Of a stretch of 58,541 bases of DNA, positions 1 to 52,300 are shown one piece after another. Numbering within the stretch: position 1 is the first letter of the stretch; the number at the start of each line of letters is the position of its first letter. The position numbers and the translations under genes are program-made. Below the pieces are notes generated by a model, which made no database searches, was not told the DNA's origin, and saw only the letters and a list, made by a program, of their open reading frames with translations. This DNA is from Methanobacteriota archaeon (lineage in GTDB: Archaea; Thermoplasmatota; Poseidoniia; Poseidoniales; Thalassarchaeaceae), in the NCBI GenBank assembly GCA_002708695.1, contig PAOZ01000033.1, positions 1 to 58,541 of the forward strand, in the 5' to 3' direction.

Positions 1-114
1 AGTTTGGGGGGAGGGAGGGGGAAATAACGAAAATTGCAAAAATCTACCCAGTTTAGGCCTCGCCGGGATTTTTAGGGCACCAACGGGTCCCCCGCTACAC
101 TCTCCGAACTACTC

Positions 115-735
115 ATGTGCTCCTCGCTCCAGCTCTCGCAGATCATCGACCACCTTACCGAGAACAAGTACAGCCGCGACGGCGCTCTGAAGCTCCTGGA
201 GAAGGAGGGACTCCTGCCGAAGAACATGATCCCCAAGGTTAAGGAAGAGAAGCCAGAGTCCCGCTTCGCCTCTCAGGCGGCGCAGGACGCTGCAGACGCT
301 ACCATGCTCGACTTCTCAGAGTGCCAGGGGACCAGCAAGAACGGCAAGATCACCGTGAAGGACGTGAAGGACTTCGCGGCTTCCAAGGTTAAGAAGGTCA
401 ACGCCAGCCCGGCTGCGGTGACCTACGCCAAGGACCACGGACTCAACCTGGAGGAAGTCACTGCCACCGGCAAAGACGGCAAGATCACCATCCAGGACGT
501 GAAGAAGTTCGCCGCTCCCGAGGAGAAGAAGGCTAAGAAACCCAAGCTCTCCCCGGGCGCCCTGAAGCTGGCCAAGCAGTGGCAGCTGGACGAGGACGAC
601 CTTGCGGAGGTGAAGCCAACTGGCTCGGGCGACACCATCAAGAAGTCCGACCTCAAGGAGCTGGTCGAGGCGGCTAAGGAGGCCTGGGCGGCTGAGGAGA
701 CGGACGAGGACTTGGGCACGGACTCTGACGCTTGA
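115..735 (+). CDS. Protein with three tandem E3-binding/PSBD-like (HeH-fold) repeats and an acidic tail
   Basis: Three repeats: ASQAAQDAAD..GTSKNGKITVKDV, ASPAAVTYAKDHGLNLEEVTATGKDGKITIQDV, LSPGALKLAK..PTGSGDTIKKSDL. They match the 2-oxoacid dehydrogenase PSBD pattern (ASP..R..A....+DL..+.GTG..GRI...DV). GC-rich codon usage. Confidence 0.7.
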   Translation: MCSSLQLSQIIDHLTENKYSRDGALKLLEKEGLLPKNMIPKVKEEKPESRFASQAAQDAADATMLDFSECQGTSKNGKITVKDVKDFAASKVKKVNASPAAVTYAKDHGLNLEEVTATGKDGKITIQDVKKFAAPEEKKAKKPKLSPGALKLAKQWQLDEDDLAEVKPTGSGDTIKKSDLKELVEAAKEAWAAEETDEDLGTDSDA

Positions 736-767
736 AGAACATCGACTAAACACCAAAAAACAAAAAA

Positions 768-795
768 CCCCTAAAAAGAGCCCTCTCGAGGGACT
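768..795. terminator. Intergenic hairpin, family B (CCCTAAAAA..GAGCCCT-CTCG-AGGGA)
   Basis: Imperfect stem-loop downstream of the 115..735 stop; related to the hairpin at 1466-1501. Confidence 0.4.
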
Positions 796-831
796 AAAAA
801 CACCGTAACGAAGAAGAGGAGACCATCACCA

Positions 832-1149
832 ATGCTATCAGACCTTCCCAAGGATCTCCATCTTCTCATCTTGGAACATGACGAAGAGAAGAAACGCCTG
901 AAAGAGGAAAACGAGAGGTTGAAGGCTCAGGTGAAGATGACCCAACTTATTCTCCTTGGACCCGAGCGCGTTGGGTGGGCGTCGTCCTTCCCTCGAGAGG
1001 TCGAGGTCCTCCCAAGTGAGATGTACAGATATTATAAAACCTTTGGGATTGTACAGTTAAAAGACAAAGTGAGGAGTTTGGGTCTCTCTGGGTATGGAAA
1101 TTCAAAGCGTGTTCTCATCAAGCGTCTTATCGAATACTACCTTGATTGA
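832..1149 (+). CDS. Hypothetical protein with N-terminal coiled coil and C-terminal Rho-N/SAP-like HeH motif
   Basis: ATG start; C-terminus IVQLKDKVRSLGLSGYGNSKRVLIKRL fits the LK...R.LGL.GY....K..LI pattern. Confidence 0.55.
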   Translation: MLSDLPKDLHLLILEHDEEKKRLKEENERLKAQVKMTQLILLGPERVGWASSFPREVEVLPSEMYRYYKTFGIVQLKDKVRSLGLSGYGNSKRVLIKRLIEYYLD

Positions 1150-1155
1150 GTATAT

Positions 1156-1192
1156 AACCAGCAGCGCTCCTAGGAGCGCATAAGTCTGGGTA
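1156..1192. repeat. Intergenic palindromic repeat, family A copy 1
   Basis: aaccagcagcgctcctaggagcgcataagtctgggta contains the perfect 16-bp palindrome GCGCTCCTAGGAGCGC; 36/37 identical to 3661-3697. Confidence 0.9.
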
Positions 1193-1210
1193 GAGAACTT
1201 AACGAAAACC

Positions 1211-1462
1211 ATGCCTACGCTGAGTCGCGGCAAGCTCATCCCCGCAGCGGTCGCGACCGAGACGTGGAAAACCCTGGTTAAGCCTTACGTCCCCCCAAAG
1301 TGCCTGGAAGTTCTAGATCATTTCACTGAAATGGCTATCGAAGCACACTTCCGAGAGCAAGTGGCAGAAGCTATTCTAGCGTCTTACGGAACAGGGTTGA
1401 CAATCACCGACGCCACTGAAAGCTGGTGGACTGAAGCCAAGCGTGTAAATACACCCCCATAA
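1211..1462 (+). CDS. Hypothetical protein
   Basis: 83-aa ATG-initiated ORF between two intergenic hairpins, co-oriented with its neighbours. Confidence 0.55.
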   Translation: MPTLSRGKLIPAAVATETWKTLVKPYVPPKCLEVLDHFTEMAIEAHFREQVAEAILASYGTGLTITDATESWWTEAKRVNTPP

Positions 1463-1465
1463 ATA

Positions 1466-1501
1466 CCCTAAAAACCATGGTGAGCCCTTTCGAGGGCTCA
1501 C
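1466..1501. terminator. Intergenic hairpin, family B (GTGAGCCCT-TTCG-AGGGCTCAC)
   Basis: Perfect 9-bp stem with a TTCG loop just after the 1462 stop. Confidence 0.55.
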
Positions 1502-1561
1502 AAACCCCGTTTCTTTTTATTATTTAAAGATAAATAATATAAAATTATAATAACGGCAGAA

Positions 1562-2185
1562 ATGAATCCAAATTTACAAATGTATGAAAGAAAAGAAGAC
1601 ATTAACACCGTTCATAGACCAGATTTTAACCCAAGAAGGTACAATTCCATACAAGATAGAGTAAATTCTGATCCAGAGTTCGAAAAAATGTACATCGATA
1701 AATTAATTTCTGAAGGATGGTATAAATTACTTGATAATCGCTCAATTTTATCAGAGGAAATGAAAGGGCGCCATTTTAAATACCGTTTAAATGGAAAAAG
1801 TTTGTCTGGGGCTAAAAAAGGGACATTTAGGAGCGGTGGAATTATCATTGGGAGATCAAATGACGATGACGACGGTAAATATATAATGTATAAGGCTTAT
1901 AACGGAAGAATATTCCCTCTTCAAATCAGTGATATATTAGAAATATATACAAAAGATCCATCTATTAAAATCCAGGGCTCAAAAAAAGAACAGAGTGTGT
2001 CTAAAACTGTATTTTTTAATAGACCAGGTGGTATAACTAAATTCCCTGTTTATTTATTGTCTGAATTATCCGGAGAACGAATTCCTATCTATTACGCAAG
2101 GGATAAATACTCTCAAGAGAGATTTGCGGCGTCTAAAAAATATCAATATGCCCTTAAAACCGGCGATTGGAATTTTTCTACTTAA
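1562..2185 (+). CDS. Hypothetical protein
   Basis: 207-aa ORF with background AT-rich codon usage; TTTAAAG motif upstream. Confidence 0.7.
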   Translation: MNPNLQMYERKEDINTVHRPDFNPRRYNSIQDRVNSDPEFEKMYIDKLISEGWYKLLDNRSILSEEMKGRHFKYRLNGKSLSGAKKGTFRSGGIIIGRSNDDDDGKYIMYKAYNGRIFPLQISDILEIYTKDPSIKIQGSKKEQSVSKTVFFNRPGGITKFPVYLLSELSGERIPIYYARDKYSQERFAASKKYQYALKTGDWNFST

Positions 2186-4221: not shown

Positions 4222-4257
4222 AACCAGTAAACTCTTCGGAGTTCTTAAGGCTGAGTA
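4222..4257. repeat. Intergenic hairpin repeat, family A copy 3 (diverged, compensatory changes)
   Basis: aaccagtaaactcttcggagttcttaaggctgagta aligns to copies 1 and 2; inner stem ACTC-TTCG-GAGT. Confidence 0.7.
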
Positions 4258-4260
4258 AAG

Positions 4261-5397
4261 ATGGTTTATCTATTATTTTCTTTAACAGCGTCATATGTTT
4301 TACAATTGAGAAAACCATCTGAATATAGTATTGCAAAAATAAGTACTATGTTAGAACGCACCAAGGGTCAAAAAACAATACCCATAAAAGCTACATTTAA
4401 TCGAGACTATGTTGTTAATGACGAAACAATGAGATGGTATCTTTCTTCTATAGGGTCTAAACGTCTTTTAGAAAAAGATGAAGAAATACAATTAGCATTG
4501 GCTGTAAAACATCTAATAGAATGGAATAATGCCAGGGAAGAGCTCAAAATAAATCTAGGACGTGAACCCACTAAAAAAGAATGGGCTATGAGTTTAGGTT
4601 TTGACGGAACTAATAAAAGTCTTAATAAATTTGAAAAAAGACTGGAACTATTTGAACAATGTAAAGAATGTATGATAACAAGCAATCTTAGGCTTGTAGT
4701 TTCAATAGCAAAAAAATATACTAATAAAGGAGTTAATATACAGGATTTGATTCAAGAAGGTTCAATGGGTTTAATTAAAGCAGTTGAAAAGTTTGATATA
4801 GAGCGTAATTGTCGTTTTTCTACTTATGCACACCATTGGATTAAACAGGCTATAACAAGGGGTGTTGCTAGATATTCTAGACCAATTAGAATTCCTATAT
4901 ATATGTCAGATTGTGCAAATAGTATTAAAAGAGCACGTAAAATTTTTTACTTAGCTAATGGTTACTCACCTACGGATAATGAACTCGCTGGTATATTAGG
5001 AATATCGGAGTCAAAATTTCGAAAAGCCTTTGATTCTAATAGACTCTTGTTATCTTTAGATGCACCATATTATCAAAACATATTAACAAATGAGGAAAAA
5101 ATTTGGATTGATATAATTCAAGACAAAAAAAGTGTTCCAGAAGACTCTTTTCAAGATAGTCAACTAAATCAAGAACTTTATAAAATTATAACAAATGTTC
5201 TTAATACACAAGAACGAGAAATATTATTTTTAAAATATGGTTTGATGGGTAGAGATACTCTTACCATGGATCAAATTAGCAAAATTTATCAGTGTCCAAA
5301 AGATACGATACAGAAGATACATTTAAGATCTTTAAGAAGACTTAGAAATACACCCCAAAAAAGTAAATTGTTTTTACCCGAATATAAGTTTGATTAA
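4261..5397 (+). CDS. Sigma-70 family RNA polymerase sigma factor, plastid/cyanobacterial type, with putative bipartite plastid-targeting leader
   Basis: Region 1.2 MRWYLSSIGSKRLLEKDEEIQLA; region 2 SNLRLVVSIAKKY..QDLIQEGSMGLIKAVEKFD..RFSTYAHHWIKQAI; region 3 PTDNELAGILGIS..SLDAP; region 4 LNTQEREILFLKYGL; cyanobacterial/plastid-type LGREPTKKEWA insert. Confidence 0.93.
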   Translation: MVYLLFSLTASYVLQLRKPSEYSIAKISTMLERTKGQKTIPIKATFNRDYVVNDETMRWYLSSIGSKRLLEKDEEIQLALAVKHLIEWNNAREELKINLGREPTKKEWAMSLGFDGTNKSLNKFEKRLELFEQCKECMITSNLRLVVSIAKKYTNKGVNIQDLIQEGSMGLIKAVEKFDIERNCRFSTYAHHWIKQAITRGVARYSRPIRIPIYMSDCANSIKRARKIFYLANGYSPTDNELAGILGISESKFRKAFDSNRLLLSLDAPYYQNILTNEEKIWIDIIQDKKSVPEDSFQDSQLNQELYKIITNVLNTQEREILFLKYGLMGRDTLTMDQISKIYQCPKDTIQKIHLRSLRRLRNTPQKSKLFLPEYKFD

Positions 5398-5407: not shown

Positions 5408-5435
5408 ATCTCTTAGGAGTTTTAAGAACGAGGTA
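5408..5435. repeat. Family A hairpin repeat copy 4 (degenerate)
   Basis: ctcttaggag core followed by ttttaagaacgaggta, 8 nt before the ATG at 5444. Confidence 0.55.
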
Positions 5436-8665: not shown

Positions 8666-9235
8666 CTAGAACAGTTGCTTACCCTGTGCAAGTTCTTGGG
8701 CAACAATTCCGACAAATGCAATCATGGCTAGCCTGCCGTTGCTTAGTTCCTTATTCAAAAGATCATTACTAATGCTTGTCATATTATACTTTCCAAGGTT
8801 TCCTGGTTGATACCCTTGTTCAAGTGTAAAAGTCTTATTTGGGTCAATTCCGTCATCGGTAAACGGATTTACCCAACCCACGCCCATGCGAAGAGTTTCA
8901 TAATTTAGAAGAGTAAACCAGAAAGGTACTTGGTGATTAAAATCAAGAGAGCTTAGATAATTAATACCTAGTGTAGAATCGGTTTGATCCAAAACTTCTA
9001 GAAGAGGAATTCCAATTGTTGCTAGCATGGCTGTGCGACCATGCATAAGCTCTGCTTCGCGAATAAACTTAAGCCTGTTATCTGGAGTATTTTCTACTAC
9101 ATTCAATGGGTCAAAATTCTTAAGAGGTTCAATAGACCCTACATAGCGCCACCCGCTGTAGGATGGTGTTGAGATAGAAGATGAGGGTACAAGACCAAGG
9201 GGTGAAAACAGATTCATTGCAATTACAGCCGACAT
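8666..9235 (-). CDS. Light-harvesting complex (chlorophyll a/c-binding) protein, LHCX/LI818-like
   Basis: FDPL; helix 1 REAELMHGRTAMLA; helix 2 YETLRMGVGWVNP; YQPGNL; helix 3 KELSNGRLAMIAFVGIVAQE. Confidence 0.93.
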   Translation of the reverse strand: MSAVIAMNLFSPLGLVPSSSISTPSYSGWRYVGSIEPLKNFDPLNVVENTPDNRLKFIREAELMHGRTAMLATIGIPLLEVLDQTDSTLGINYLSSLDFNHQVPFWFTLLNYETLRMGVGWVNPFTDDGIDPNKTFTLEQGYQPGNLGKYNMTSISNDLLNKELSNGRLAMIAFVGIVAQELAQGKQLF

Positions 9236-9276: not shown

Positions 9277-12200
9277 TTATTTTTCTTTTTTTACACGTGT
9301 TTTCTTTTGTTTAGCCGGAATAATGTCTAACCATAGTTCTGGGATATTGTCCATCATTGGTGCGAATATAGTTTCGATAACTGATTTAAATTGGTGTTCA
9401 AAGTAGTAAAGATAATCAATTGGTATATTGTTTTTTCTAACATATTCTGGATCTTCTACCTTTTCAAATTGTTTTGTACTGTTGTATGTTGCAAATACAA
9501 AAGAAATGCGGTCTCCCGAATTTACAACGTCCATTCTATCTCTTTCTGCTCTTTTTCTAGCTAAAGCTACGTGGGGAAGATTAGCCGGACATTGTTTGAA
9601 TGTAGTTAGTTTTGAACAATTAGGACAGGTGTGTTCTCTCTTTAGAAAATCCTCTAAGATAGTTTCTTTCGGATTGGTGTCTTCAATCGGTTTTTTCCAA
9701 AGAACTGTGATGTCCATTTCTTTTTTACCAGTTACGTTTATTTCATAATATGTTTTAGAACAATCATTACATACGGCTTTACGATCAAATGCATAACCAG
9801 TTCTTAGAGATTTTGACAACAAAAGATCATTCATCGGAATTTCTCCGTTTATTAGCTTTCTGATTTTATCCCTAGCAAATTCTTTAGATGTTTCTATAAG
9901 TTCGTCTACTGTATCAAATGTGTAATTTAGGACCTTTTCATTTAGGAAGATGTATTCGAAAATCTTTTTAGCATTGTTTCTTACAAACGCGCAATTGTCT
10001 CGCCTTACAACCTGAATTCCTTTATAATCTATGTAGTCATATTTTAGAGGGTTTGTCCAGAATAGACTTGCATATCTCTTTTTAGAATACAATATGAAAG
10101 GATACATAACCTTCTCAAACTCGAGTTCAATAGGTTTTTTAAATGTAGCCGAGATCCTATCTGCACATTCTGGTGCAACCTTAAATACGTAATTCATATG
10201 ATCTTGACCCTTTAAGTCGCTCTTGAACTTTACATAAATAGAATCTGTATCACCATAAACAACTTCACAATCATACCATTCTTCAGCACATTTCTTCGAA
10301 TGTGCAATCATGTTTCTACCACTTGCAGTTACAGCCGCCGCAATCTTTTTATTAGGAAGCCTTCCATATTTTGCACCTGTAAAACCATAAATACTATTCA
10401 TAGAAACCTTGATAGCAAGTTGTACCCCATTTAGAACAGCATACAAAGAGTCTTCTGGGTTTAATGTTTTCATTTGTTTGCGAATGTCTTTTCTTTCTTT
10501 CCACAGGCGTTGTAGAATCTTAGGCATAATACCTTGTTGATTTTGTACAAATTTAACAGGGCCTTCTCCAAAGTCTATCGATTCGTATGTAATGTCTTCT
10601 AGATTATCATACTCTGGATTATCTACTATTGTTGAGTAATCATAGTTGTGAGCAATCATAATAGAAGGGTATAGACTAGCAAAATCAAGACCTGCAATTG
10701 GTTGGAAATGAGCACCAGGTGTAGCATCTAGAACTGTTGCACCCACAAAATTATCTTCATCATCGTCTATTTCTCCGGCGGGTTTGTAATCTGTGGTTGG
10801 AATAAGAAAATCTTCTTTTTTAGTCTCGTATGCAATTTGAGTATGAACCCTGATTTGCTGACCTCTAAGTTCAATATCTTGCATAGAAACCATAGTAATA
10901 TTAGACATACCAATCATATTAGTTATAATTCTGAGTTTAAGAATGAGTTCTATAAGAAGCCATGTATCTTGCGCGCAATACTTGACTACAAGCGCTATTT
11001 TATCTTTAGTTGATGTGTTATATTTAAAAAGATCTGCTGGACTAAGGTCGTCCTTAGAATCTCCAATGAAGTGTTCAGAAACGCTATTCAATTTGTAAGA
11101 TTCTAGTTTATGTTCTTTCTTAATAATAAACATAAGATCAAATTGGGTAATACCATGTGTTTTCATGTATTTCATGGTATTGTCTCCATAAGCAGATGTG
11201 CTAAGACGACTTTCAAAAAACTCAGCTGGTTTAGAATTTATTCTACTAAGATTTTGTAGAACATATTCTATATCAAGTACTTTAGCTCTTGCGTATAAAT
11301 AACTCCAATCGAAACCATATCCGTTATATTGAACTAGAATGTCAGGATCTGTATCTTTAATGAATTTTACCCATCCTTCAATTAGTTCTTTTTCTGTGTC
11401 GTAAGTTTCTATTATTACACCATCTACTGGATCACAATCATTATCAATCGGGCTTTTAATGGTAACAACATGTTTAACTTGTTCTTTTGTTCCAAATTTA
11501 TACAAACTAGTGCCAATCTGAGTAACAATGTCAAGTGGGTTTTCTGGGTTAGGGAATTCATTTAAATTTAGATGTCTAGATGAGTAAGAAAATGCCTCAA
11601 TATCCCAAGATCCGATAGTCAAGTTACAGATGTCCTGTTTATCATATGGTCTAACATTTTGATAATGACAAATGTAACTATGTTGACATCTTGACATATC
11701 CATGTCTTGAGTAAGGGCTTTCGCTTTTACCCACCCAGCCATTTTAATTTCCATTTTGTGTGTAAATCTCAAATAAGGATCTATATTAGATTCATATAGA
11801 TCAAATTTTAGAGGAGATACCTTATCAATATTAGAAATCTTCGGAAGTTTTGATTTTTCTTTAGGATTTAGTATGTATCTTATCCTATTAAATGTATATA
11901 GATTCTTACAAACAAATCTCAAGAATTTAAATTTTTTACCATTAGTAAAACCTTTGTATTTTTTACGTTCGACGAGATCAACTGAGATGAGATCGTTTTT
12001 TGATTTGAATAGTTTATTACGAATAAATCTTTCTACTTCCTTTTTTGAGTAATCAGTGAAGGAGTTTTGATGTTTATCAGGAACGAGTGCAAATAAATAA
12101 GGTCTATAATTTTCAAATCTAACACAGACAGATTCTCCTAATTCATTTACACCAAATGTGTAAATGTGATATCTTTTATCAACTACATTAGGATCAGGTT

Positions 12201-12321
12201 CGTCGTCACCTGAGTAGTCTTGTTCGATATCTTCATCAAATGCTTCCCAAGATAAAATTTGGTACACCAATTCATTGTGATCAACCTCTTCTGTATACTG
12301 AGGACGTTTAAATGGTAACAT
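9277..12321 (-). CDS. polB: Family B DNA polymerase
   Basis: Exonuclease motifs WDIE, YNGYGFD, YCAQD; polymerase motifs DFASLYPS, KVSMNSIYG, YGDTDS, KKRY. No intein seen. Confidence 0.99.
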   Translation of the reverse strand: MLPFKRPQYTEEVDHNELVYQILSWEAFDEDIEQDYSGDDEPDPNVVDKRYHIYTFGVNELGESVCVRFENYRPYLFALVPDKHQNSFTDYSKKEVERFIRNKLFKSKNDLISVDLVERKKYKGFTNGKKFKFLRFVCKNLYTFNRIRYILNPKEKSKLPKISNIDKVSPLKFDLYESNIDPYLRFTHKMEIKMAGWVKAKALTQDMDMSRCQHSYICHYQNVRPYDKQDICNLTIGSWDIEAFSYSSRHLNLNEFPNPENPLDIVTQIGTSLYKFGTKEQVKHVVTIKSPIDNDCDPVDGVIIETYDTEKELIEGWVKFIKDTDPDILVQYNGYGFDWSYLYARAKVLDIEYVLQNLSRINSKPAEFFESRLSTSAYGDNTMKYMKTHGITQFDLMFIIKKEHKLESYKLNSVSEHFIGDSKDDLSPADLFKYNTSTKDKIALVVKYCAQDTWLLIELILKLRIITNMIGMSNITMVSMQDIELRGQQIRVHTQIAYETKKEDFLIPTTDYKPAGEIDDDEDNFVGATVLDATPGAHFQPIAGLDFASLYPSIMIAHNYDYSTIVDNPEYDNLEDITYESIDFGEGPVKFVQNQQGIMPKILQRLWKERKDIRKQMKTLNPEDSLYAVLNGVQLAIKVSMNSIYGFTGAKYGRLPNKKIAAAVTASGRNMIAHSKKCAEEWYDCEVVYGDTDSIYVKFKSDLKGQDHMNYVFKVAPECADRISATFKKPIELEFEKVMYPFILYSKKRYASLFWTNPLKYDYIDYKGIQVVRRDNCAFVRNNAKKIFEYIFLNEKVLNYTFDTVDELIETSKEFARDKIRKLINGEIPMNDLLLSKSLRTGYAFDRKAVCNDCSKTYYEINVTGKKEMDITVLWKKPIEDTNPKETILEDFLKREHTCPNCSKLTTFKQCPANLPHVALARKRAERDRMDVVNSGDRISFVFATYNSTKQFEKVEDPEYVRKNNIPIDYLYYFEHQFKSVIETIFAPMMDNIPELWLDIIPAKQKKTRVKKEK

Positions 12322-23070: not shown

Positions 23071-26000
23071 TCATTTCATTAATAAAAATAGTATCAAGAG
23101 AACTATAACTACCCCAGCTCCTATCCCTCCATACTTAATCATCTTGTCTTTATTTTCAACTTTTTTCTTCTCTTCTTCTATTTTATTTTCAAGAACTGTA
23201 TTTTTACCTTTAAATATATCTATTTCTTTTTTACATTCATCTTTTTCTTCTTTTCTAATTTGTTCTGCATCTACGGGTACGTTATTCTTCGTCTTTTCCG
23301 CTTCTAATTCAGCTTTTAAATTAATTATCTCTTCGCCCAAGTCTTCTATCTGTTCCATCTTCAAATCCACAGTCTCGCCGCTCTTCTCCGCCATGCCGAC
23401 GATAGCCTCCGTCGCCTCCGCCTCCGACGCCAGCAGCTGATCCTGCAGTAGTTGGTTGGTCCCTCGAGCCGCCTCCAGCTGCGCCTTCAGTGACTCCACT
23501 TCGGCGCTAGAGGGACGCGCCGCCAGTTGCGCCTCCAGCTCAGCGACGCGCGCCGCCGCCGCGCCCGCCGCCGCCTTAACGTCAGTATCACTTACACCTT
23601 CTGATTCTTTAATAACATTATTTAATTTTTTTATAAACTGAACTGCAAATGTTATAGGTTTAGTATTTTTATATCTACTATCTAACAATTCTCTAAATGT
23701 TTCAATAATCCACTCACTCTCTCCTTTCATATGGAGACTAAGATACGCCATAAGCATTTTAAGCCCTTGCATTTCACTTTCAAAATTTGGATGATTTGCT
23801 ATAGTCACCCACACGGCGATATATTTGGACATTGGCGATGTAGAAGCATCAAGCTGAGGAACATTTTCTCCAAATTCATCTCTATTTTTTTCGTTGAATC
23901 TTTTGAGGCCTTGCTCAAAAGTGAGCTCAGAGGCCTTACCAGCATTGAAAATTTCTATTATTTCGGGAGGAAATGGTTCATCTTTTATAATCGCAGTGAT
24001 TAATAGTTTAGAAATCCTTTTAAATATTTCAACATTCTGTTTTGAAGGAAATGCAGGGACATCTTGTGCCCTCCCGGTCCCTACCTCTACCCCTACTCCT
24101 TCCCCTGTCCCTGTCGCTACCCCTACCCCTCCCCGTAGTTCGTTCAAGACTGTAATTTTCATTTCTTCTACTTGCCTGACATCCCTACCGGTCACCGCCC
24201 CCCTTGGTCTACTGTCAAGTTCCGCCAATTCCACTACTTCCTTGGTTAGAGGATGAAATCTCTGTGCAAAAGCTTCGTATTCAATATTAGTGAAACCTTC
24301 ATTTCTGGCTACCCCGCGAATAATGTCTGCCACGGCTAGCTGATTAGGATTAAGAGAATTGAGTATATTGAGCGTGGCGACAGTGGTGCCGGAGGGCGGG
24401 GGCGTCATGAATACAGCGGGGCCCCAATCGTCATCGTCGGGATCGACGTCACCCTCATCGTCAGTATCTTCAGGGGAAACGTTTCCGGTGTCAACCAGTG
24501 TGAAATTGCCGCCGCCTTTGTTTACAACGGCGACTGATGCGGTGCCTGGTACGGTGAGAGCATATTTGTAGTGATCTATTGTCAAGTCTACCCAACTATC
24601 CATCTCCTGATTGAGTACAGTAAAATACGCATCAGGATCATGGTCATGAAGTACAGTGTGATTTCCACAAACGTATACCAGGTTTACAAGTCTTATATTA
24701 TCAACCAATACCACTATGAGATTATTTATTATTTCTCTGAAATTGTTAACAAGTTCATTAAATTTCTGTTCCGTTAGTCGTCCGTCCTTATTCTTTGCCC
24801 TCTCTTCTTCGATGGCTAAATCCAGGCGCTTCCCAGAATTTGAAATAATATCCAAAAATGCTAATGTGATATGATTCATTAATTTAATTAACCATTTTCG
24901 TCTTATTTCCTTTTTAGATGCATTTTTTAAATTTCCATTAAGAATTTCAAATGTTAGTTCCTTGTATGCCTGTTTAGAGTGGTATAGTATATTAACGTTA
25001 CTCGCTTCAAGTGATTCTTGCCCGTCGGTAAAGGGTGTGCTTGCTTGCCCCTTGTTCCAATTCCAAGTATCTCTACCGGGTCCTGGTAGGTCTTCTAAAT
25101 TTCCACGGAACTTGTCTTCGAAGACATATTCGTCTAACGTAGTCTTCCAACACATATAGTGTTTTTCATCGTTCCACATTATGTTGTCGTATTTTAACCA
25201 CCACTTGTCGTCGGTAGACTTCTGGTTGATCTTCTGCGTACAGGATTTAGCGGCATTAAACCAATAGTCTATATCCTTTCCTTCAACTTCAGGTGGTGGG
25301 GCGCAGGCTTCGCCGCCACCCCAATTCTTTGGTAATTTACTTAAATATTCGCCGGTGATATTAGCATTGCCTAATCTGAACTGGTACACATTAGAAATTC
25401 CACAGTCAAAGTTATCTTTAAACCATTGTATATGACCATATAACTCCGATTTACCTTTGTACTTTCCAGTTAATAATTTGAAACCAAGGACATCCCACTC
25501 ACCAAGATTAGGCCTATACAATTGTGCAATGTTTATTTCAAAAACTTTCCCAGCAATCTCGGTGCCATAGTTGATGATCGGGTTTTGTTTAACAAATTCT
25601 TCCTGTGTAACTCCCTGCTGCCTCCGGTCAAAATTAGAGACAGCAATTATATTAGAATTTTCAAATTGTTCTTCCTTAGGAAAGACATTCGTGATACCCA
25701 CAGGAGCCCCTTTCATGTAACCACTTAAAATTCCAGGTATTCGATCGATTCCGGTGAAAAACAATTCGTCCCCACCTGGGGAAGCGTACTCGGTTATAAA
25801 ATCCGGCTCTGAGGGAATGGCGCACGCGCGGAACTTGTTGACCGGTGTAGTTGCTGGAAAAGCCACTGCGTTCATGATGGCCTCATTGGCTCTCTCTTTG
25901 TTGGTCATCGCCGGGTCGATGGAAGCAACGACTTTTTTGTTAGGAATATTTAGTGATTGATTGTTGGCCGGCCCTATCGAATCCGTTGGAATGGAAGCAA

Positions 26001-26625
26001 CGACTTTTTTGTTAGGAATATTTAGTGATTGATTGTTGACCGGAGTAGTTGCTGAGTCTCCTTGCTCGCGCAGCACGGGCACGTTGAGAGAACCGCAGGA
26101 CTGCGCCGGCCCGAATTCGTAGTTCTGCCAAAAATAATCGCCGAGCTCCTCTTTGTACTTCTCGTCACATCTATTGCGGACAAATTCTCTACAATGCTCG
26201 CAATCTGCGGGCAGTTTGCCTACGCAATTAGTCACCAATTTTTTGCAAGTGTTCAAGGCAATTCCCGTATCGTAACCACTGATGGAGGTTACGGTTGCGG
26301 TCGCCCTCGTCGTGTTCTTCGCCGGCGCCTTCGTCACTGTCTGCTGCGACGGTGGGTCGCACCCTTCCTCCTCCGCTATCATACACGATTCCTCATTCCC
26401 AGCCGCGCATTCGTGTTCAAGCCATTCGCACTGTTCATTTTCATATTTTTCTACTCTCTTTCTATTTCTAGGCTTAACTCTTTGTAGAACCGAATATGGT
26501 TTTTTACGAGGTTCCTTTTTTTCATAAAGTTCTTTAGAATAATGACTAGAACCCCCGCTCGTGGCATTATTTGAATCTATAGATGGTTCATGAGAAGATC
26601 TCTTGTATTCTTTATGGTATTTCAT
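23071..26625 (-). CDS. Large C-terminally membrane-anchored protein with Cys-rich N-terminus and coiled coil; possible virion or membrane protein
   Basis: Cys clusters near the N-terminus, duplicated NNQSLNIPNKKVVASI, heptad region before the TM helix GGIGAGVVIVLLILFLLMK. Confidence 0.7.
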   Translation of the reverse strand: MKYHKEYKRSSHEPSIDSNNATSGGSSHYSKELYEKKEPRKKPYSVLQRVKPRNRKRVEKYENEQCEWLEHECAAGNEESCMIAEEEGCDPPSQQTVTKAPAKNTTRATATVTSISGYDTGIALNTCKKLVTNCVGKLPADCEHCREFVRNRCDEKYKEELGDYFWQNYEFGPAQSCGSLNVPVLREQGDSATTPVNNQSLNIPNKKVVASIPTDSIGPANNQSLNIPNKKVVASIDPAMTNKERANEAIMNAVAFPATTPVNKFRACAIPSEPDFITEYASPGGDELFFTGIDRIPGILSGYMKGAPVGITNVFPKEEQFENSNIIAVSNFDRRQQGVTQEEFVKQNPIINYGTEIAGKVFEINIAQLYRPNLGEWDVLGFKLLTGKYKGKSELYGHIQWFKDNFDCGISNVYQFRLGNANITGEYLSKLPKNWGGGEACAPPPEVEGKDIDYWFNAAKSCTQKINQKSTDDKWWLKYDNIMWNDEKHYMCWKTTLDEYVFEDKFRGNLEDLPGPGRDTWNWNKGQASTPFTDGQESLEASNVNILYHSKQAYKELTFEILNGNLKNASKKEIRRKWLIKLMNHITLAFLDIISNSGKRLDLAIEEERAKNKDGRLTEQKFNELVNNFREIINNLIVVLVDNIRLVNLVYVCGNHTVLHDHDPDAYFTVLNQEMDSWVDLTIDHYKYALTVPGTASVAVVNKGGGNFTLVDTGNVSPEDTDDEGDVDPDDDDWGPAVFMTPPPSGTTVATLNILNSLNPNQLAVADIIRGVARNEGFTNIEYEAFAQRFHPLTKEVVELAELDSRPRGAVTGRDVRQVEEMKITVLNELRGGVGVATGTGEGVGVEVGTGRAQDVPAFPSKQNVEIFKRISKLLITAIIKDEPFPPEIIEIFNAGKASELTFEQGLKRFNEKNRDEFGENVPQLDASTSPMSKYIAVWVTIANHPNFESEMQGLKMLMAYLSLHMKGESEWIIETFRELLDSRYKNTKPITFAVQFIKKLNNVIKESEGVSDTDVKAAAGAAAARVAELEAQLAARPSSAEVESLKAQLEAARGTNQLLQDQLLASEAEATEAIVGMAEKSGETVDLKMEQIEDLGEEIINLKAELEAEKTKNNVPVDAEQIRKEEKDECKKEIDIFKGKNTVLENKIEEEKKKVENKDKMIKYGGIGAGVVIVLLILFLLMK

Positions 26626-45329: not shown

Positions 45330-46604
45330 ATGGATAATCCTCTTACAACCTGGTTTTATACAACTGGTAAATTTGTAACGGATTCTGAAAAACAAGAAGT
45401 TACTCATTTTTTACTAGACGGAGGTAAATTAGACATTTCTAAAGATTATGAATTATTTCAAGAAATGTATTCTAAATACATTCATTTTAAAAATTGTATA
45501 GTAGAAAGGAAGACAAATTTATTTAAGTTTTTTATAGATTTTGATTTTAATTCTACAGAGATTATAGATATATCAGGATTTATTGAAGTTATACAAGATG
45601 TTATAGAAAATATATATGGGGTTCCTCAATTATGTATAATAACCTGTGCTGATAAATATAAAGAAATTATTAAATCCGGTATTAAATATATAAAACAGGG
45701 CTATCATCTACATTGGCCGGATATTCTTGTTGATAAAAATACTGCTAAAAACATCCGTAAAAATATCCTCGTAAGAATGAAAACCGAGTTTGGTGAAATA
45801 GAATCATCTTGCGATAAATGGGAAAAAATTATAGATAAATGTGTTTATGATGCAAATGGTCTTCGAATAATAGGTTCGGATAAATGTTCTATATCAGACG
45901 GTATTAAATTTTATGAAAATAGAGTATACGAAGTTAAATCGGTATATAATGGGAAAAACTTTGAAAAGGAACTTACAAAAGAATACATTAGTAATAATTT
46001 ATTGGCTATTAGGAAAACAAGTGTAAGATCAGATGCAACTTGTATTACACCATATAAGAACCTTCAATTTTATGAAGAAACAGAAGACTCCGGAGAAACT
46101 TCTTCGATGAGAGGATTTAATAGACTTGATAAAGATTCTAATGAATATATATCAATTATTAAATTCTTTAATAATTATATTCCTCACTACAAATCTGAGG
46201 ATATTCGTATAATTCAAAAATCTAAAGACAACCCTGTATATATAATAGCTACAAAATCTAAGTACTGTCAAAATAAAGGAGATTTTCATTCTCATAATAA
46301 TATTTATTTTAAGTTAACCCCGTCTGGATTTTGTCAAAAATGTTTATCTGAAAGTCAGGGTGAATTTGGTTGTTGTAGAGATTATCAGAGTGAACCCGTA
46401 CCTATTAGTCCTGGTTTAGAAAGCGCCTTAGGGTGGAAAAAACCTAAAGAAAACCCCGGAGATTTGCCTAATTCTGAAAAATTCACATTGGAAAATATTC
46501 TATCTGGTATGGAAAATAGAATAACAAACAAACAACAATCTCTAGGACCCACTAAGTGTAAAAAAAATAAATTTAAGGCTGATTTAGTAAAGAAGAATTA
46601 TTAA
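45330..46604 (+). CDS. Archaeo-eukaryotic primase (PrimPol-like) with C-terminal Zn-binding domain
   Basis: FFIDFD (DxD), GYHLHWP, IDKCVY..GLRIIGSDK, KYCQNKGDFHSHNNIYF..QKC. Confidence 0.85.
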   Translation: MDNPLTTWFYTTGKFVTDSEKQEVTHFLLDGGKLDISKDYELFQEMYSKYIHFKNCIVERKTNLFKFFIDFDFNSTEIIDISGFIEVIQDVIENIYGVPQLCIITCADKYKEIIKSGIKYIKQGYHLHWPDILVDKNTAKNIRKNILVRMKTEFGEIESSCDKWEKIIDKCVYDANGLRIIGSDKCSISDGIKFYENRVYEVKSVYNGKNFEKELTKEYISNNLLAIRKTSVRSDATCITPYKNLQFYEETEDSGETSSMRGFNRLDKDSNEYISIIKFFNNYIPHYKSEDIRIIQKSKDNPVYIIATKSKYCQNKGDFHSHNNIYFKLTPSGFCQKCLSESQGEFGCCRDYQSEPVPISPGLESALGWKKPKENPGDLPNSEKFTLENILSGMENRITNKQQSLGPTKCKKNKFKADLVKKNY

Positions 46605-49329: not shown

Positions 49330-52300
49330 ATGGCAACTGGTTCATTTGCCGCTATAGCATCATATAACGGAACCGGTACGCAGGGGTTAGCCGTTGTGGA
49401 TAAAATAAAAGATGACGATGAAGATGATGTAATGTCTGTATTCTGGAACAAAACAGATACAGATAAACAAATTTTACACGGATCTAACATTCTAGAGATT
49501 CCTACATCAACATCTAATAAACAAGGAACATGGGGTGGCAGTCAGACTTTCAGTGTTAATCCAGAAGTTGATTGTATAGGAGACATTTACTTAGCATTGA
49601 ATGTAGATTTTAACATCCCTGAATCTTCACTGGTTGAAGAACAATATCCAAGAACAATAACCACGTTATTACAAAAACCGTCTGATCCAAATCATGAATT
49701 TTTAAACAATACACAACCAGTTGGTTATTCTCTTAGGGGAACAAAGAAAGGTGATACAGAACCTAAGAGTAGTATAATAGGTTATCAACAGGGTTTTAAA
49801 AGAGATGAATCAACTAGTTATGATTCTAATGGAATACCGTCTGCATATTCTCAAAATGGATATCCAAATAGAGGAGAGGGGGATGATGAACATTGGATGG
49901 AACTTCCCGCTCAGAGAAAAACATTAAAAGGGATAAGAACTTATTATGATACTAACCCATCATCAGGAGAAGAACCTAATGAATTAGTTAATACAGGTAT
50001 GTTATCTAAATCTGATTCTGTTCATATGACAACAGTTGATACTCAGGTGAATCAACCCCATGATAATTCAGGTAATATTCTAGAAGGATTTAATAACTGG
50101 ATAAACACATCATTAATCGAAACCGCAAACGATAATCATTTAAGCGCTAAAGTAACAGATGGACCTCCCCCTGGTAGATTTCCTGGAGTATTAACCGAAG
50201 AAGACGCCAACGAAATAAAACACACTGGCAACGAATTTTTAGCTTTAGATGAAAACGGGGAATTTGAGATATATAATTCCGAGGGGGTTGTAGCAAGTGA
50301 TCTATTTAAATCTTATCTTAATAGAAATGACATCGATAATTTAGTGAATTATTATAATGACAGTACAACACGTTCGCATCCCCTCGAGACATTAAACGAG
50401 ACATCCGGGTTACAAGATGGGGAGGTTAAAAGTATAACAAAAAACAGTTTTTCTATAAATGATCAGGAAGTCGGTAACGCAGATTTTAATGGAGAGTGTG
50501 TTGCTATAAGCGAAGATGGTAATACAATGGCAGTTGGGCAGGGGTTTACAATATCTAGAGACGGACTGGTAACAGCAGGTGTTAAAGACGTTGCCCATAA
50601 CGCTCCATGGAACACATACACACCAGCCGAGACTCCTTATGGAACCTGGTCTCATGATAATAAAGTAGAAGGAGTACCAATTGGGCATTATATGAAAAGA
50701 CCTGATAATTTAAGCATAGATGATACTATAAGACATATTGGAAAAGTTAGAGTATATAAAAAGAAAAAAGGGATTTGGATGTTATCAGGAGTATTACATC
50801 CTCCAAAATCTACCTTTACACCACCCAAGAGACCCGGTATAAATAATACTATTGTACCGGGTCCTCAGAACGGGTTTGCTAATGGTAATACTATTTTTAC
50901 AGACCCGTCTTCTAATGGTATGACTTTAGAATGGACAGGGAAAAATCAACATAGTAGCGTCGTAAACCCAGATTTTACTGCTAATACACCCACAGATCTC
51001 AATGCAGAGTCTACTAATTTTACCGGTTTTACACAAGGTGGACTCCACGGTTTTACAAATAATAAATACATTAGTATAAACGCCGATGGTACTCGTATAG
51101 TAGTAGCCGAGTCTAATAAAAATTCAGGGGCTCCATATAATGGATGGAGTGGTACATTTGATTATACAGAAACCGATGGGTGGAAATTTATTAATGAAGG
51201 TTATGTGGGTAGATACAGTAGAGCCGATATGGATTACAAAGGAATTCCTGGTGCTTGGGATGTATCATTATCAGGCGATGGAAATTCTTTAGCTTCTTTA
51301 GACTTAAGAGCTTTAGCTGGGAATACAATAAATAACAGACACGCTTGTGCACCTATTGAAATGATAGATTATGAAAAATGGAAGTTGGGAGGAAGTGAAG
51401 ATTGGGATAAATTTCTTCCAGGAGATTATGATAATATTGATGAATATGTCGTAGATTATGATAACTACGCGAGCATCACGAACCCCGGTGCGGTGATTGA
51501 CGGGCGATTTTGGCAGCAATCCCCTATTACAGAAGAAAACCCTCAAAGTGTTCATAAATGGAAATGGGCATGGTTTATTTCTGAATTTGGAAGAAGACAT
51601 CGTTGGGATAGTAATTACGATGTAAATCGCGAAGGAGGGATAAAAACACATAGTCTTTCTAAATCTTGGGCAAGGGCATCATTGGAAAGAATTTTAGATT
51701 CTAAAACAGTTCCTTTTTCTGATTTTATTAGAATGAGACCTAGAATTGGTCATAGAATTTTACAATCCCCGGAATCGACAAATATGGGAGATTTTTTTGA
51801 CTTGGACCCCAACAATAGTAATACGGAGGTGACTGAGGACATTCCACGTGGTATAAAAGCTTCTAATTCAGGGTATATGAATTCTATTAGTTTTAAAGAC
51901 AACGGTATTAAACCAAGTAATCCTTATGAACCAAGTCTTTCACATAAGGAAAATTTTGACATACCAAGAAATACTATAAATACTGAAAATCAAACAAATG
52001 AATCCGGTACAACTTTTCCTGAATCGACTATTCCATTCAACCATTATGCATATTTTAAAGAGGCTGTATTTCCAGGCGGAGGTTCAGAAGCATATAAACC
52101 ACACCCGTGTAATGTTTGGATTAGATACTGGGATCCTACAAATCAAGGACCTAATAAAGATAATATAGGAGGAATAGGATATAATGAATCGGATAGAATA
52201 AATGGATGGGTAAATCATAAGGTAGATTATATAAAAGATTCAGGACTTTTTGGACGAGGAGATAAAGATATTTGGCATCAATACATATACAGAAAAATAT

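What the first reader, a model, noticed from the sequence alone, without database searches (positions are those of the whole stretch)
4261..5397. Eukaryotic giant virus encoding a plastid-type sigma-70 factor
This is a full sigma-70 (regions 1.2, 2, 3, 4) in an NCLDV context, where sigma factors have no role in viral nuclear or cytoplasmic transcription. It has the cyanobacterial/plastid insert (LGREPTKKEWA) and a leader MVYLLFSLTAS|YVLQ resembling the signal + aromatic (ASAFAP-type) plastid-targeting motif of red-lineage algae. Plastid-encoded RNA polymerase depends on nuclear-encoded sigma factors (established), so the virus could redirect or sustain chloroplast transcription. Core-binding region 2.1-2.2 is well conserved, but region 4.2 is altered (PKDTIQKIH versus canonical TRERIRQIE). 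That points to changed -35 recognition or a dominant-negative decoy.
Basis: partly seen in the sequence, partly recalled or inferred. Interest (0 to 1): 0.88.

Follow-up and report, generated by a model that had tools for sequence, protein, structure and literature searches.

The report
Giant-virus sigma factor aimed at plastids
A widespread marine giant virus carries an intact, selectively maintained copy of an algal chloroplast sigma factor that keeps the alga's own import leader but has a rewritten promoter-reading helix, so the virus probably steers chloroplast transcription during infection, although this is so far predicted from sequence only.

Summary
ORF 4261-5397 (+) encodes a 378-aa sigma-70 protein with regions 1.2, 2, 3 and 4, of the cyanobacterial/plastid type. 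It lies on a contig with NCLDV hallmark genes: PolB, topoisomerase II, AEP primase, A32 ATPase and FEN1. The contig is mis-binned in a mixed prokaryote MAG, but 15 independent marine assemblies reproduce the same gene order, so it is not a mis-assembly.

Five viral lineages (contig GC 24-45%) form one clade inside a family of GC-rich, unnamed environmental eukaryotic sigma genes, possibly from haptophytes. This indicates a cell-to-virus transfer.

Viruses and cells share the N-terminal leader M[VI]xLL[LF]SLT..|[YFW] followed by a basic, hydroxyl- and proline-rich stretch. This is the design of complex-plastid bipartite signals. The leader is under purifying selection (dN/dS 0.1-0.27), like the rest of the protein.

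Core-binding and -10-reading residues are kept. Virus-specific substitutions concentrate in region 4.2, at R586, R588, Q589 and E591, and at H455 (Fisher p about 1e-4).

Best reading: the protein is imported into the plastid and is a PEP-binding sigma with altered or relaxed -35 reading. A dominant-negative decoy is the main rival.

The only precedent I found is the uncharacterised OtV-2 'putative sigma factor'. Import and activity are untested.

The parts
4222..4258 (+). Conserved intergenic hairpin element (..AAACTCTTCGGAGTT..GGCTGAGTAAAG) that ends 3 nt before the sigma ATG
   Evidence: Copies of the same element stand just before the ATGs of neighbouring genes (at 5408 and 6268, among others). 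This supports 4261 as the true start codon, and therefore translation of the leader (lead from note e1-5241160).
4261..5397 (+). Viral sigma-70 gene: 378 aa plus stop, group 1/2-like, cyanobacterial/plastid type, no region 1.1
   Evidence: In the AF2 model sigma2, sigma3 and sigma4 reach pLDDT 81-92. dN/dS is 0.12-0.24 against orthologues.
4261..4293 (+). Leader part 1: short hydrophobic signal-peptide-like segment MVYLLFSLTAS, with predicted cleavage before Tyr12
   Evidence: Conserved as M[VI][YHC]LL[LFY]SLT in all five viral lineages and in the MVHLLLSLTAVA|Y cellular subgroup. Mean hydropathy is 1.94 over 9 residues.
4294..4425 (+). Leader part 2: transit-peptide-like stretch (residues 12-55). 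It starts with an aromatic residue, has net charge +5 and is rich in S/T/K
   Evidence: dN/dS of codons 1-55 is 0.10 and 0.27, similar to the mature part. Low pLDDT.
4429..4506 (+). Region 1.2 (residues 57-82)
   Evidence: Pfam PF00140, 22.4 bits against a cut-off of 22.
4552..4584 (+). LGREPTKKEWA motif in the segment between regions 1.2 and 2.1, shared with cyanobacterial and plant sigmas
   Evidence: Alignments.
4672..4878 (+). Region 2 (residues 138-206): core-binding 2.1-2.2 and -10 recognition/melting 2.3-2.4. Positions equivalent to Y430, W434, Q437 and T440 are kept; W433 is His
   Evidence: Pfam PF04542, 73 bits; the genome search 4672-4878; alignments.
4918..5070 (+). Region 3 (residues 220-270). 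Just upstream, region 3.0 carries the viral-clade-specific H455-to-Tyr change (residue 214, bases 4900-4902)
   Evidence: Pfam PF04539. Y214 is invariant in the 5 viral copies, while His is found in 33 of 33 non-viral sequences.
5197..5349 (+). Region 4 (residues 313-363). The -35 recognition helix (residues 346-362, bases 5296-5346) is remodelled: positions equivalent to R586, R588, Q589, E591, A592 and A594 are all changed
   Evidence: Pfam PF04545. 11 of 19 positions conserved in cellular copies are changed in all viral copies. Fisher p = 4e-5 against regions 1.2-3.1.
8666..9235 (-). Viral chlorophyll a/b-binding (LHC) protein with a similar short hydrophobic-then-aromatic, Ser/Pro-rich leader (MSAVIAMN|LFSPLGLVPSSSISTP). 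It is a second putative plastid-directed protein on the same contig
   Evidence: Pfam PF00504, 84.8 bits; N-terminus read.
9277..12321 (-). Family B DNA polymerase (NCLDV hallmark), 4 kb from the sigma gene
   Evidence: More than 100 marine relatives at 70-96% identity.
31877..35113 (-). Fused eukaryote-type topoisomerase II (context)
35870..36691 (+). Pox_A32-type packaging ATPase (NCLDV hallmark; marginal score)
   Evidence: 24.8 bits against a cut-off of 22.8.
45330..46604 (+). C962R-type AEP primase domain protein (NCLDV hallmark)
   Evidence: PF23162, 79.8 bits.

Best explanation
The gene is a host-derived auxiliary gene of an uncultured marine giant virus (Nucleocytoviricota).

An ancestor of the virus captured the nuclear gene for a chloroplast sigma factor from an alga with a complex plastid. 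The donor belongs to a GC-rich lineage known only from environmental sequence, possibly a haptophyte. The gene then spread or diversified into at least three viral genome contexts.

The protein keeps the donor's bipartite-type leader: a short signal-peptide-like segment, an aromatic residue at the predicted cleavage site, and a basic stretch rich in hydroxylated residues. After synthesis in the infected cell it is therefore most likely routed through the ER into the plastid stroma.

Once there, its well-conserved regions 2.1-2.2, 3 and 4.1 would bind the plastid-encoded RNA polymerase core in competition with host sigmas. Its intact -10 recognition and melting residues would allow promoter opening. 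Its remodelled region 4.2 and region 3.0 (H455Y) would change or relax the reading of the -35 and extended -10 elements. The result would be a shift in which plastid genes are transcribed during infection.

Shown: gene integrity, viral context, purifying selection, cellular ancestry, leader conservation, and region-4-specific divergence.

Inferred: import, core binding, altered promoter choice, and benefit to the virus.
For: - Intact four-region sigma of cyanobacterial/plastid type. AF2 domains are confident.
- NCLDV hallmarks on the same contig, and composition matching the contig.
- 15 independent contigs with the same synteny.
- dN/dS of 0.12 (dS 0.17) and 0.24 (dS 0.35) against orthologues. 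Leader codons 1-55 give 0.10 and 0.27.
- The viral clade has 100/100 support and lies inside a 100/98 family whose other members sit on 61-69% GC contigs (GC3 84-94%). One of these contigs carries a eukaryotic AMMECR1 gene.
- The leader is conserved from virus to cell. It is recoverable in the P0031 and P0003 lineages from an upstream in-frame ATG that gene callers missed.
- 23 of 25 distinct leaders fit small-x-small|[FWYL] followed by a net-positive stretch. Only the sigma, 1 of 51 contig ORFs, fits the strict rule.
- The hairpin element fixes the start codon.
- The viral LHC on the same contig has a leader of similar design.
- Virus-specific changes are enriched in region 4 (17 of 39 positions against 20 of 150; p = 8e-5). 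Most are fixed to one new residue across viral lineages: Q588, L592, S594, Q575, S577 and Y455 in E. coli numbering.
- From established knowledge: plastid PEP depends on nuclear-encoded sigma factors, and plastids of red-lineage algae encode the PEP core.
Against: - There is no experimental or transcript evidence.
- No SignalP, ASAFind or HECTAR was available. The hydrophobic segment is only about 11 residues with no basic n-region, which is short for an ER signal peptide.
- The host is unknown and no family member carries an organism name. The 'complex red-type plastid' therefore rests on the leader design and on one neighbouring gene with about 50% identity to haptophyte proteins.
- Residues at the positions of R584, E585, R586 and Q589 vary among viral lineages. 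That could mean loss of -35 reading, not a new specificity.
- The TIGR02997 score is below the curated cut-off.
- The gene is absent beside PolB in 82-86% PolB relatives, so the virus group can do without it.
Confidence: 0.6

Rival explanations
1. Dominant-negative decoy. The protein is imported and binds the PEP core through its conserved regions 2.1-2.2. Because its DNA-reading residues in regions 4.2 and 3.0 are damaged, it blocks productive initiation and shuts plastid transcription down. This would free nucleotides or disable plastid-derived stress signalling.
For: Residues invariant in all 33 non-viral sequences are replaced in all viral copies: H455, R586, R588, Q589 and E591. The positions of E585, R586 and Q589 differ among viral lineages, as expected under relaxed constraint. 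Core-binding regions are conserved.
Against: The -10 recognition and melting residues (equivalents of Y430, W434, Q437, T440, R441) are retained under purifying selection. A pure decoy would not need them. Most region 4 changes are fixed to the same new residue in lineages that differ by more than 35% overall, which suggests a new constraint and not decay. The virus also carries an LHC gene, which fits sustaining the plastid better than switching it off.
Confidence: 0.17
2. The sigma works outside the plastid, for example as a DNA-binding regulator in the nucleus or virus factory, or with another partner. On this view the N-terminal segment is a membrane anchor or secretory signal, not a plastid signal.
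For: The hydrophobic segment is short and could not be scored with a trained predictor. Import is untested.
Against: Sigma-70 factors are only known to work with bacterial-type core RNAP (established knowledge). NCLDV and nuclear polymerases are of the eukaryotic type. The leader is inherited from cellular homologues whose only plausible workplace is the plastid, and the aromatic +1 residue plus basic stretch are conserved. Core-binding residues are under selection.
Confidence: 0.06
3. Recently captured passenger gene with no function for the virus (neutral hitch-hiker on its way to loss).
For: It lies in a variable, accessory region and is missing beside PolB in 82-86% PolB relatives.
Against: It is kept intact in five lineages spanning 24-45% contig GC and about 60% protein identity. 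It is fully adapted to viral codon composition (GC3 17% against 84-94% in cellular copies). dN/dS is 0.12-0.24.
Confidence: 0.04
4. Artefact: the gene is cellular or bacterial contamination, or a chimeric join, in a mis-binned contig.
For: The window is one contig of a mixed 'prokaryote' bin containing three composition classes and a second sigma on contig C42. One relative, P0055, is a clear DnaG-sigma assembly chimera.
Against: The same order (dCMP deaminase ... sigma ... LHC-PolB) is found in 15 contigs from different samples and assemblers. The gene's composition equals that of the contig. The shared intergenic hairpin element flanks it like its neighbours.
Confidence: 0.01
5. The factor targets a cyanobacterial endosymbiont or nascent organelle of the host (for example a UCYN-A/nitroplast-like partner of a haptophyte) and not the plastid.
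For: Cyanobacterial-type sigma. Possible haptophyte donor.
Against: There is no C-terminal extension of the kind reported for nitroplast-imported proteins (my own knowledge). The family ends 10-25 residues after region 4.2. The N-terminal design matches plastid bipartite signals.
Confidence: 0.02

Closest known systems
Nuclear-encoded plastid sigma factors of algae and plants (e.g. Arabidopsis SIG1-SIG6; algal SIG genes) that serve the plastid-encoded polymerase PEP
   Same: Same domain set (regions 1.2, 2, 3, 4; no 1.1) and the same cyanobacterial-type segment between regions 1.2 and 2.1. There is an N-terminal targeting extension. The gene nests in a clade of eukaryote-like sigma genes.
   Different: It is encoded by a virus and has AT-rich viral codon usage. 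The -35 recognition helix and the H455 position are changed at residues that are invariant in the cellular, plant and cyanobacterial sequences examined. It is only about 40% identical to Mesostigma, Riccia and Porphyridium sigmas.
Putative RNA polymerase sigma factor of the prasinovirus OtV-2 (Weynberg et al. 2011, as cited in PMC5371798 and PMC4468942)
   Same: A giant algal virus carrying a sigma factor gene attributed to transfer from a cell. It is uncharacterised functionally.
   Different: OtV-2 infects a green alga with a primary plastid. No named viral protein appears among the 120 best hits of the present protein, and its whole family lacks any NCBI-named member. This is therefore probably an independent acquisition from another algal lineage. 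No leader or region 4 analysis of the OtV-2 protein was found. Its sequence could not be retrieved here.
Cyanobacterial group 1/2 sigma factors (SigA; structures 8h3v, 9dvs, 8gzg)
   Same: Best structural and sequence relatives with solved structures, at about 38-41% identity over regions 1.2-4.
   Different: Cyanobacterial sigmas have no hydrophobic leader and have a canonical VTRERIRQIEAKALRKL helix. They sit in the other half of the tree.
Phage-encoded sigma factors, including cyanophage sigma factors of the TIGR02997 type (PMC9878933) and the classical T4/SPO1 sigma switches
   Same: A virus brings its own sigma to redirect a bacterial-type RNA polymerase.
   Different: Here the polymerase would sit inside a eukaryotic organelle, behind several membranes, so a targeting leader is required. 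The virus's own genes are not transcribed by that polymerase.
Viral auxiliary photosynthesis genes (cyanophage psbA; LHC genes of marine giant viruses)
   Same: Host-derived genes that act on the photosynthetic apparatus during infection. An LHC gene lies 3.3 kb away on this contig.
   Different: This gene would act at the level of organelle transcription and not as a structural component.

Membership tests
Sigma-70 family, group 1/2 (RpoD/SigA-like) | Regions 1.2, 2, 3 and 4 present in order | tested here: met
   PF00140, PF04542, PF04539 and PF04545 all score above their cut-offs. The AF2 model shows three confident helical domains.
Sigma-70 family, group 1/2 (RpoD/SigA-like) | Conserved -10 recognition and melting residues in regions 2.3-2.4 (E. 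coli Y430, W433, W434, Q437, T440) | tested here: met
   Y189, W193, Q196 and T199 are kept. The W433 position is His in the window and Tyr in most of the family. Numbering was derived from motifs recalled from memory.
Sigma-70 family, group 1/2 (RpoD/SigA-like) | Canonical -35 recognition helix in region 4.2 (R584, E585, R586, R588, Q589) | tested here: not met
   The window has K, D, T, Q, K at these positions. R586, R588 and Q589 are changed in all five viral copies but invariant in 33 non-viral sequences.
Sigma-70 family, group 1/2 (RpoD/SigA-like) | Binds core RNA polymerase and directs promoter-specific initiation | not testable with these tools
   Only conservation of region 2.1-2.2 can be shown.
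Cyanobacterial RpoD subfamily (NCBIfam TIGR02997) | Score at or above the curated cut-off of 384.5 bits | tested here: not met
   264 bits. It is the best-scoring model, with full-length alignment 2-298 of 298, but is below the cut-off. The protein is a divergent relative, not a member.
Nuclear-encoded plastid sigma factors of complex-plastid algae | Phylogenetic position among eukaryotic nuclear sigma genes | tested here: inconclusive
   It nests with 100/98 support in a family on 61-69% GC contigs, one of which carries a eukaryotic AMMECR1 gene. No member of that family or of its nearest outgroups carries an organism name.
Nuclear-encoded plastid sigma factors of complex-plastid algae | Bipartite topogenic signal: ER signal peptide, aromatic residue or Leu at +1 of the cleavage site, then a transit-peptide-like stretch | tested here: inconclusive
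   A crude rule is met by 23 of 25 distinct family leaders and by 1 of 51 contig ORFs. No trained predictor (SignalP, ASAFind, HECTAR) was available. The hydrophobic segment is short, at about 11 aa.
Nuclear-encoded plastid sigma factors of complex-plastid algae | Import into the plastid stroma | not testable with these tools
   Needs localisation experiments.
Nucleocytoviricota (NCLDV) genome fragment | Hallmark genes: family B DNA polymerase, A32 packaging ATPase, primase, transcription factor, topoisomerase II | tested here: met
   PolB, Pox_A32 (marginal, 24.8 against 22.8), AEP C962R primase, a TFIIB-like protein (below cut-off) and TopoII.
Nucleocytoviricota (NCLDV) genome fragment | Double-jelly-roll major capsid protein and VLTF3 | tested here: not met
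   PF04451, PF16903 and PF04947 find nothing in the whole bin. The contig is a 58.5-kb fragment, so absence from the virus is not shown.
OtV-2-type prasinovirus sigma factor | Close sequence relationship to the OtV-2 gene | tested here: inconclusive
   No NCBI-named viral protein is among the 120 best hits. The OtV-2 sequence and paper were not retrievable.

The most novel reading that the evidence does not exclude
A clade of abundant marine giant viruses runs a phage-style sigma switch inside a eukaryotic organelle. The virus sends a captured and re-specified sigma factor, and an LHC protein, through the host's own multi-membrane import route into the complex plastid. There the new region 4.2 redirects the plastid-encoded polymerase to a virus-favoured subset of promoters, or to -35-independent promoters. 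This keeps selected photosynthesis genes running while host control by its own sigma factors is out-competed.
Probability: 0.3. Interest if true: 0.85.

Novelty: new variant of a known kind. Interest (0 to 1): 0.7.

Why it matters
Giant viruses of algae are known to carry metabolic and light-harvesting genes. Direct viral control of organelle transcription has not been demonstrated.

This gene gives a concrete, testable handle with three parts: a short leader that can be fused to GFP, a sigma that can be assayed with core polymerase, and a natural set of paired viral and cellular sequences that differ mainly in the promoter-reading helix. If the gene is active, viral infection would reprogramme chloroplast gene expression in abundant ocean phytoplankton, which would affect how infected cells photosynthesise.

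It also shows that host targeting signals can survive transfer into a virus and a drop from about 90% to 17% GC3. That makes such leaders useful for predicting hosts of uncultured giant viruses. In addition, gene callers truncate the leader in two lineages, so similar cases may be hidden in existing catalogues.

Tried and rejected
2. IMG/VR scan with a profile of the viral sigmas: 61 pattern matches, none confirmed.
3. Naming the cellular lineage: three cluster look-ups gave no organism for the family or its nearest outgroups. The only name obtained was Porphyridium purpureum SigA, for a distant clade. The neighbouring-gene approach gave only weak haptophyte affinity.
4. Naming the virus: PolB has more than 100 marine relatives but no named isolate. 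No capsid or VLTF3 gene is in the bin.
5. Donor subgroup: the first careful tree placed the viruses as sister to the MVHLLLSLTAVAYL subgroup (98/91). That alignment included leader columns. Without the leader the viruses are sister to the core cellular group. AU tests do not reject cellular monophyly (p = 0.11-0.12). I therefore dropped the specific-donor claim.
6. P0055, a DnaG-sigma 'fusion': rejected as a 1.8x-coverage assembly chimera that joins inside the highly conserved region 2.
7. 'Dense intronless genes' on the GC-rich contigs as a clue to the organism: rejected, because long spurious ORFs are expected at 61-69% GC.
8. The OtV-2 genome paper (PMC3126241) is not held.
9. Bacterial or phage origin: rejected by the trees and by the leader.
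Full report
**1. Observation**

The ORF at 4261-5397 (+) starts with ATG and encodes 378 residues. Pfam finds Sigma70 regions 2 (73 bits), 3 (37), 4 (32) and 1.2 (22.4), each over its curated cut-off, and no region 1.1. Among NCBIfam models the best is TIGR02997, the cyanobacterial RpoD subfamily. It aligns end to end at 264 bits, which is below the 384.5 cut-off, so the protein is a divergent relative and not a member. Among solved structures, cyanobacterial SigA chains score 197-215 bits and E. coli RpoD scores 146.

LGREPTKKEWA aligns with the segment that cyanobacterial and plant sigmas carry between regions 1.2 and 2.1. An AlphaFold2 model built on a 38-sequence alignment gives confident sigma2, sigma3 and sigma4 domains (pLDDT 81-92). 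Confidence is low for residues 1-52 and for the 3.2 linker, as expected for a sigma factor with a flexible leader.

**2. Context and authenticity**

The contig carries the following genes:
- a family B DNA polymerase (9277-12321)
- a fused topoisomerase II (31877-35113)
- a C962R-type AEP primase (45330-46604)
- an SF2 helicase
- a Pox_A32-type ATPase (marginal score)
- XPG/FEN1
- a YqaJ recombinase
- a TFIIB-like protein
- patatin
- thioredoxin
- dCMP deaminase
- an Eco57I-type methyltransferase
- an LHC protein

The window is the whole of contig C33 of a 1.77-Mb, 57-contig assembly scored as a 70%-complete prokaryote. By GC and tetranucleotide composition the bin is a mixture of three populations:
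- a main population near 40% GC, whose only RNAP large subunit is a 1035-aa archaeal-length ORF on C12
- eight low-GC outliers, including the window
- two 53%-GC contigs, one of which holds a second, unrelated sigma

The contig is therefore a mis-binned viral fragment. It is not a mis-assembly. A 96%-identical sigma (P0001) lies on 15 independently assembled contigs from Tara and other marine samples. All show the same order: dCMP deaminase, small ORFs, sigma, small ORFs, LHC, PolB. The gene's composition (GC 30%, GC3 17%) matches the contig. No capsid or VLTF3 gene is in the bin, which is unsurprising for a fragment.

**3. Relatives**

The word-indexed search and the exhaustive HMMER search agree. 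There is a tight family at 45-96% identity. Identity then drops to about 40% for cyanobacterial RpoD and for Mesostigma and Riccia sigmas. No family member comes from an annotated NCBI record.

The family splits by composition into two groups.

Viral copies:
- the window and P0001
- P0002 (84% identity), on a 24%-GC contig with a K+ channel, GIY-YIG, ubiquitin, TspO and dNK genes
- P0031 (62%), on four 45%-GC virus-like contigs
- P0003 (67%), on a 46%-GC contig

Apart from the sigma, these contigs share almost nothing with the window. The gene therefore sits in at least three genomic contexts.

Cellular-looking copies (P0004-P0054) lie on metagenome contigs of 61-69% GC with GC3 of 84-94%. On one such contig the neighbouring gene is a eukaryotic AMMECR1. 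Its best named relatives are an MMETSP transcript (77%) and the haptophytes Diacronema and Calcidiscus (about 50%). The next outgroups are also Ala/Arg/Pro-rich proteins with signal-peptide-like N-termini.

**4. Phylogeny**

In a 108-sequence quick tree and two careful trees, the five viral copies form a clade with 100/100 support on a long stem. This clade lies inside a family supported at 99-100. Cyanobacteria, green-lineage sigmas and Porphyridium SigA fall in the other half of the tree. This fits a single cell-to-virus transfer followed by diversification or virus-to-virus spread.

The exact donor is not resolved. With leader columns included, the viruses are sister to the MVHLLLSLTAVAYL subgroup (98/91). 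Without them, the viruses are sister to the core cellular group (95/90). AU tests do not reject cellular monophyly (p = 0.11-0.12).

**5. The leader**

The window begins MVYLLFSLTAS|YVLQLRKPSEYSIAKISTMLERTKGQKTIPIKATFN. The other viral copies begin as follows:
- P0002: MVYLLFSLTTT|YILQ
- P0003, from an upstream in-frame ATG that the gene caller missed: MIYLLLSLT|YILPAWRSP
- P0031, likewise from a missed upstream ATG: MICLLLSLRYFLPATLL

Many cellular copies begin MVHLLLSLTAVA|YLSPTWRVPLAPASP. Others begin MMIVAAVATSSLA|YF, MLLTTVIAAAA|W or MPVSLVTAAAALA|FF.

Of 25 distinct full-length leaders, 23 have small-x-small followed by F, W, Y or L within the first 28 residues. All are followed by a net-positive stretch (+3 to +7) that is poor in acidic residues. 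A stricter version of the rule is passed by only one of the 51 non-overlapping ORFs of the contig, and that ORF is the sigma.

The leader codons are as constrained as the rest of the gene. dN/dS is 0.10 against L013 and 0.27 against L001, compared with 0.12 and 0.23 for codons 56-378. The counts are small.

A conserved intergenic hairpin element ends 3 nt before the ATG at 4261, as it does before the ATGs of neighbouring genes. This supports 4261 as the true start.

The viral LHC on the same contig must reach the thylakoid to function. It has a leader of similar design, MSAVIAMN|LFSPLGLVPSSSISTP.

This design matches the bipartite signals of algae with red-type complex plastids (my knowledge of the ASAFAP/Phe-motif literature). 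I could not run a trained predictor, and the hydrophobic part is short.

**6. Functional residues**

I mapped positions to E. coli sigma-70 by motif; the numbering is recalled from memory and is consistent with the alignment.

Retained:
- region 2.1-2.2 is close to the cyanobacterial consensus
- the positions of Y430, W434, Q437, T440 and R441 are kept

Changed across the whole family:
- W433 is Tyr in most members and His in the window
- Y425 is Cys

I then compared the five viral copies with positions conserved in at least 11 of 12 cellular copies and counted positions changed in all five viral copies:

| Region | Changed / conserved |
|---|---|
| 4.2 | 11 of 19 |
| 4.1 | 6 of 20 |
| 3.2 | 6 of 14 |
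| 1.2 to 3.0 | 7-18% |

For region 4 against regions 1.2-3.1 the Fisher p is 8e-5.

The following positions are invariant in all 33 non-viral sequences but changed in every viral copy: H455 to Y, R476 to Y/F, P553 to T, R562 to K, E575 to Q, G577 to S, R586 to T/A/V/M, R588 to Q, Q589 to K/R/G, E591 to H/Y, A592 to L, and A594 to S.

Most of these are fixed to one residue across viral lineages that are otherwise only about 60% identical. That argues for a new constraint. The positions of E585, R586 and Q589 vary among viral lineages, which argues for relaxed reading of the -35 bases. The cellular homologues keep the canonical KERVRQIEARALRKL.

**7. Selection and distribution**

dN/dS is 0.12 at dS 0.17, and 0.24 at dS 0.35. 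The virus group is abundant: the PolB cluster has 72 members and more than 100 related clusters at 70-96% identity.

In relatives with 82-86% PolB identity, the helicase-to-PolB core block is syntenic. The other side of PolB differs and lacks both sigma and LHC. The sigma is therefore an accessory gene in a variable region.

**8. Mechanism**

Best reading (confidence 0.6): the protein is an imported sigma that engages the plastid-encoded polymerase and changes promoter choice, with -10 reading kept and -35 and extended -10 reading altered or relaxed.

Main rival (0.17): an imported decoy that blocks the core.

Minor rivals: action outside the plastid, a neutral passenger gene, an artefact, or targeting of a cyanobacterial endosymbiont.

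**9. Novelty**

The searchable literature contains only the unstudied 'putative RNA polymerase sigma factor' of the prasinovirus OtV-2, attributed to transfer from a cell (PMC5371798, PMC4468942), and cyanophage sigma factors (PMC9878933). Searches for giant-virus sigma factors, plastid-targeted giant-virus proteins or chloroplast transcription in this context returned nothing else.

Earlier notes of this scan describe, in another genome, a small ECF-like sigma and a ClpP with similar leaders. I did not test those notes and do not count them as evidence.

I file this as a new variant of a known kind: a host-derived sigma factor in an algal giant virus. What is new here is that it comes from a complex-plastid lineage, retains the bipartite leader, and has a clade-specific remodelling of region 4.2.

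Noticed in passing
whole assembly G000 (window = contig C33): The bin is a mixture. Most contigs are near 40% GC, and their only RNAP large subunit is a 1035-aa archaeal-length ORF on C12. Eight low-GC contigs (C2, C8, C27, C31, C33, C40, C43, C46; 27-36% GC) group with the window. C1 and C42 (53% GC) are a third organism that carries an unrelated 496-aa sigma.
   Followed up: partly
L003:2003-2095 and L018:154-210: Gene callers start the viral sigma of two lineages (P0031, P0003) at an internal ATG and so cut off the conserved leader. The upstream in-frame ATG restores MICLLLSLRYF... and MIYLLLSLTYILPAW.... Similar truncations may hide targeting signals in catalogues.
   Followed up: yes
L007 (protein P0055): An apparent DnaG primase-sigma fusion on a 1.8x-coverage contig. 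The sigma part is 89% identical to cellular P0007 and begins inside conserved region 2, so this is very probably an assembly chimera.
   Followed up: yes
window 1156, 3661, 4222, 5408, 6268, 6832: A repeated intergenic hairpin element (core CTC[CT]T[AC]GGAG, then ..GGTAA..) stands a few bases before the start codons of several genes of the accessory array. It may be a promoter, terminator or translation signal.
   Followed up: partly
window 8666-9235 (-): A viral LHC (chlorophyll a/b-binding) protein right next to PolB, with a leader MSAVIAMN|LFSPLGLVPSSSISTP. It is absent beside PolB in the 82-86% PolB relatives (L020-L022), like the sigma.
   Followed up: partly
window 36941-37240 (-): A small ORF beginning MKKAIIFALLYLFSTES|FVLKPPTRKELIKR, followed by a hydrophobic stretch. 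It is another candidate signal-plus-aromatic leader, flagged by another first-stage note.
   Followed up: no
window 49330-58413 (+): A 3027-aa ORF with no Pfam match. ORFs of 1184 aa (23071-26625), 699 aa, 591 aa and 561 aa are likewise unannotated.
   Followed up: no
window 1-2000 and 115-735: The first 2 kb are much more GC-rich (48%) than the rest of the contig. They hold an ORF made of repeated E3-binding (PSBD) domains.
   Followed up: no
L001 (14.9-kb contig, 24% GC): The 84%-identical sigma lies in a quite different neighbourhood: a Kcv-like K+ channel, GIY-YIG, ubiquitin, TspO/MBR, dNK and a 1032-aa helicase. TspO is another organelle-membrane protein family.
   Followed up: no
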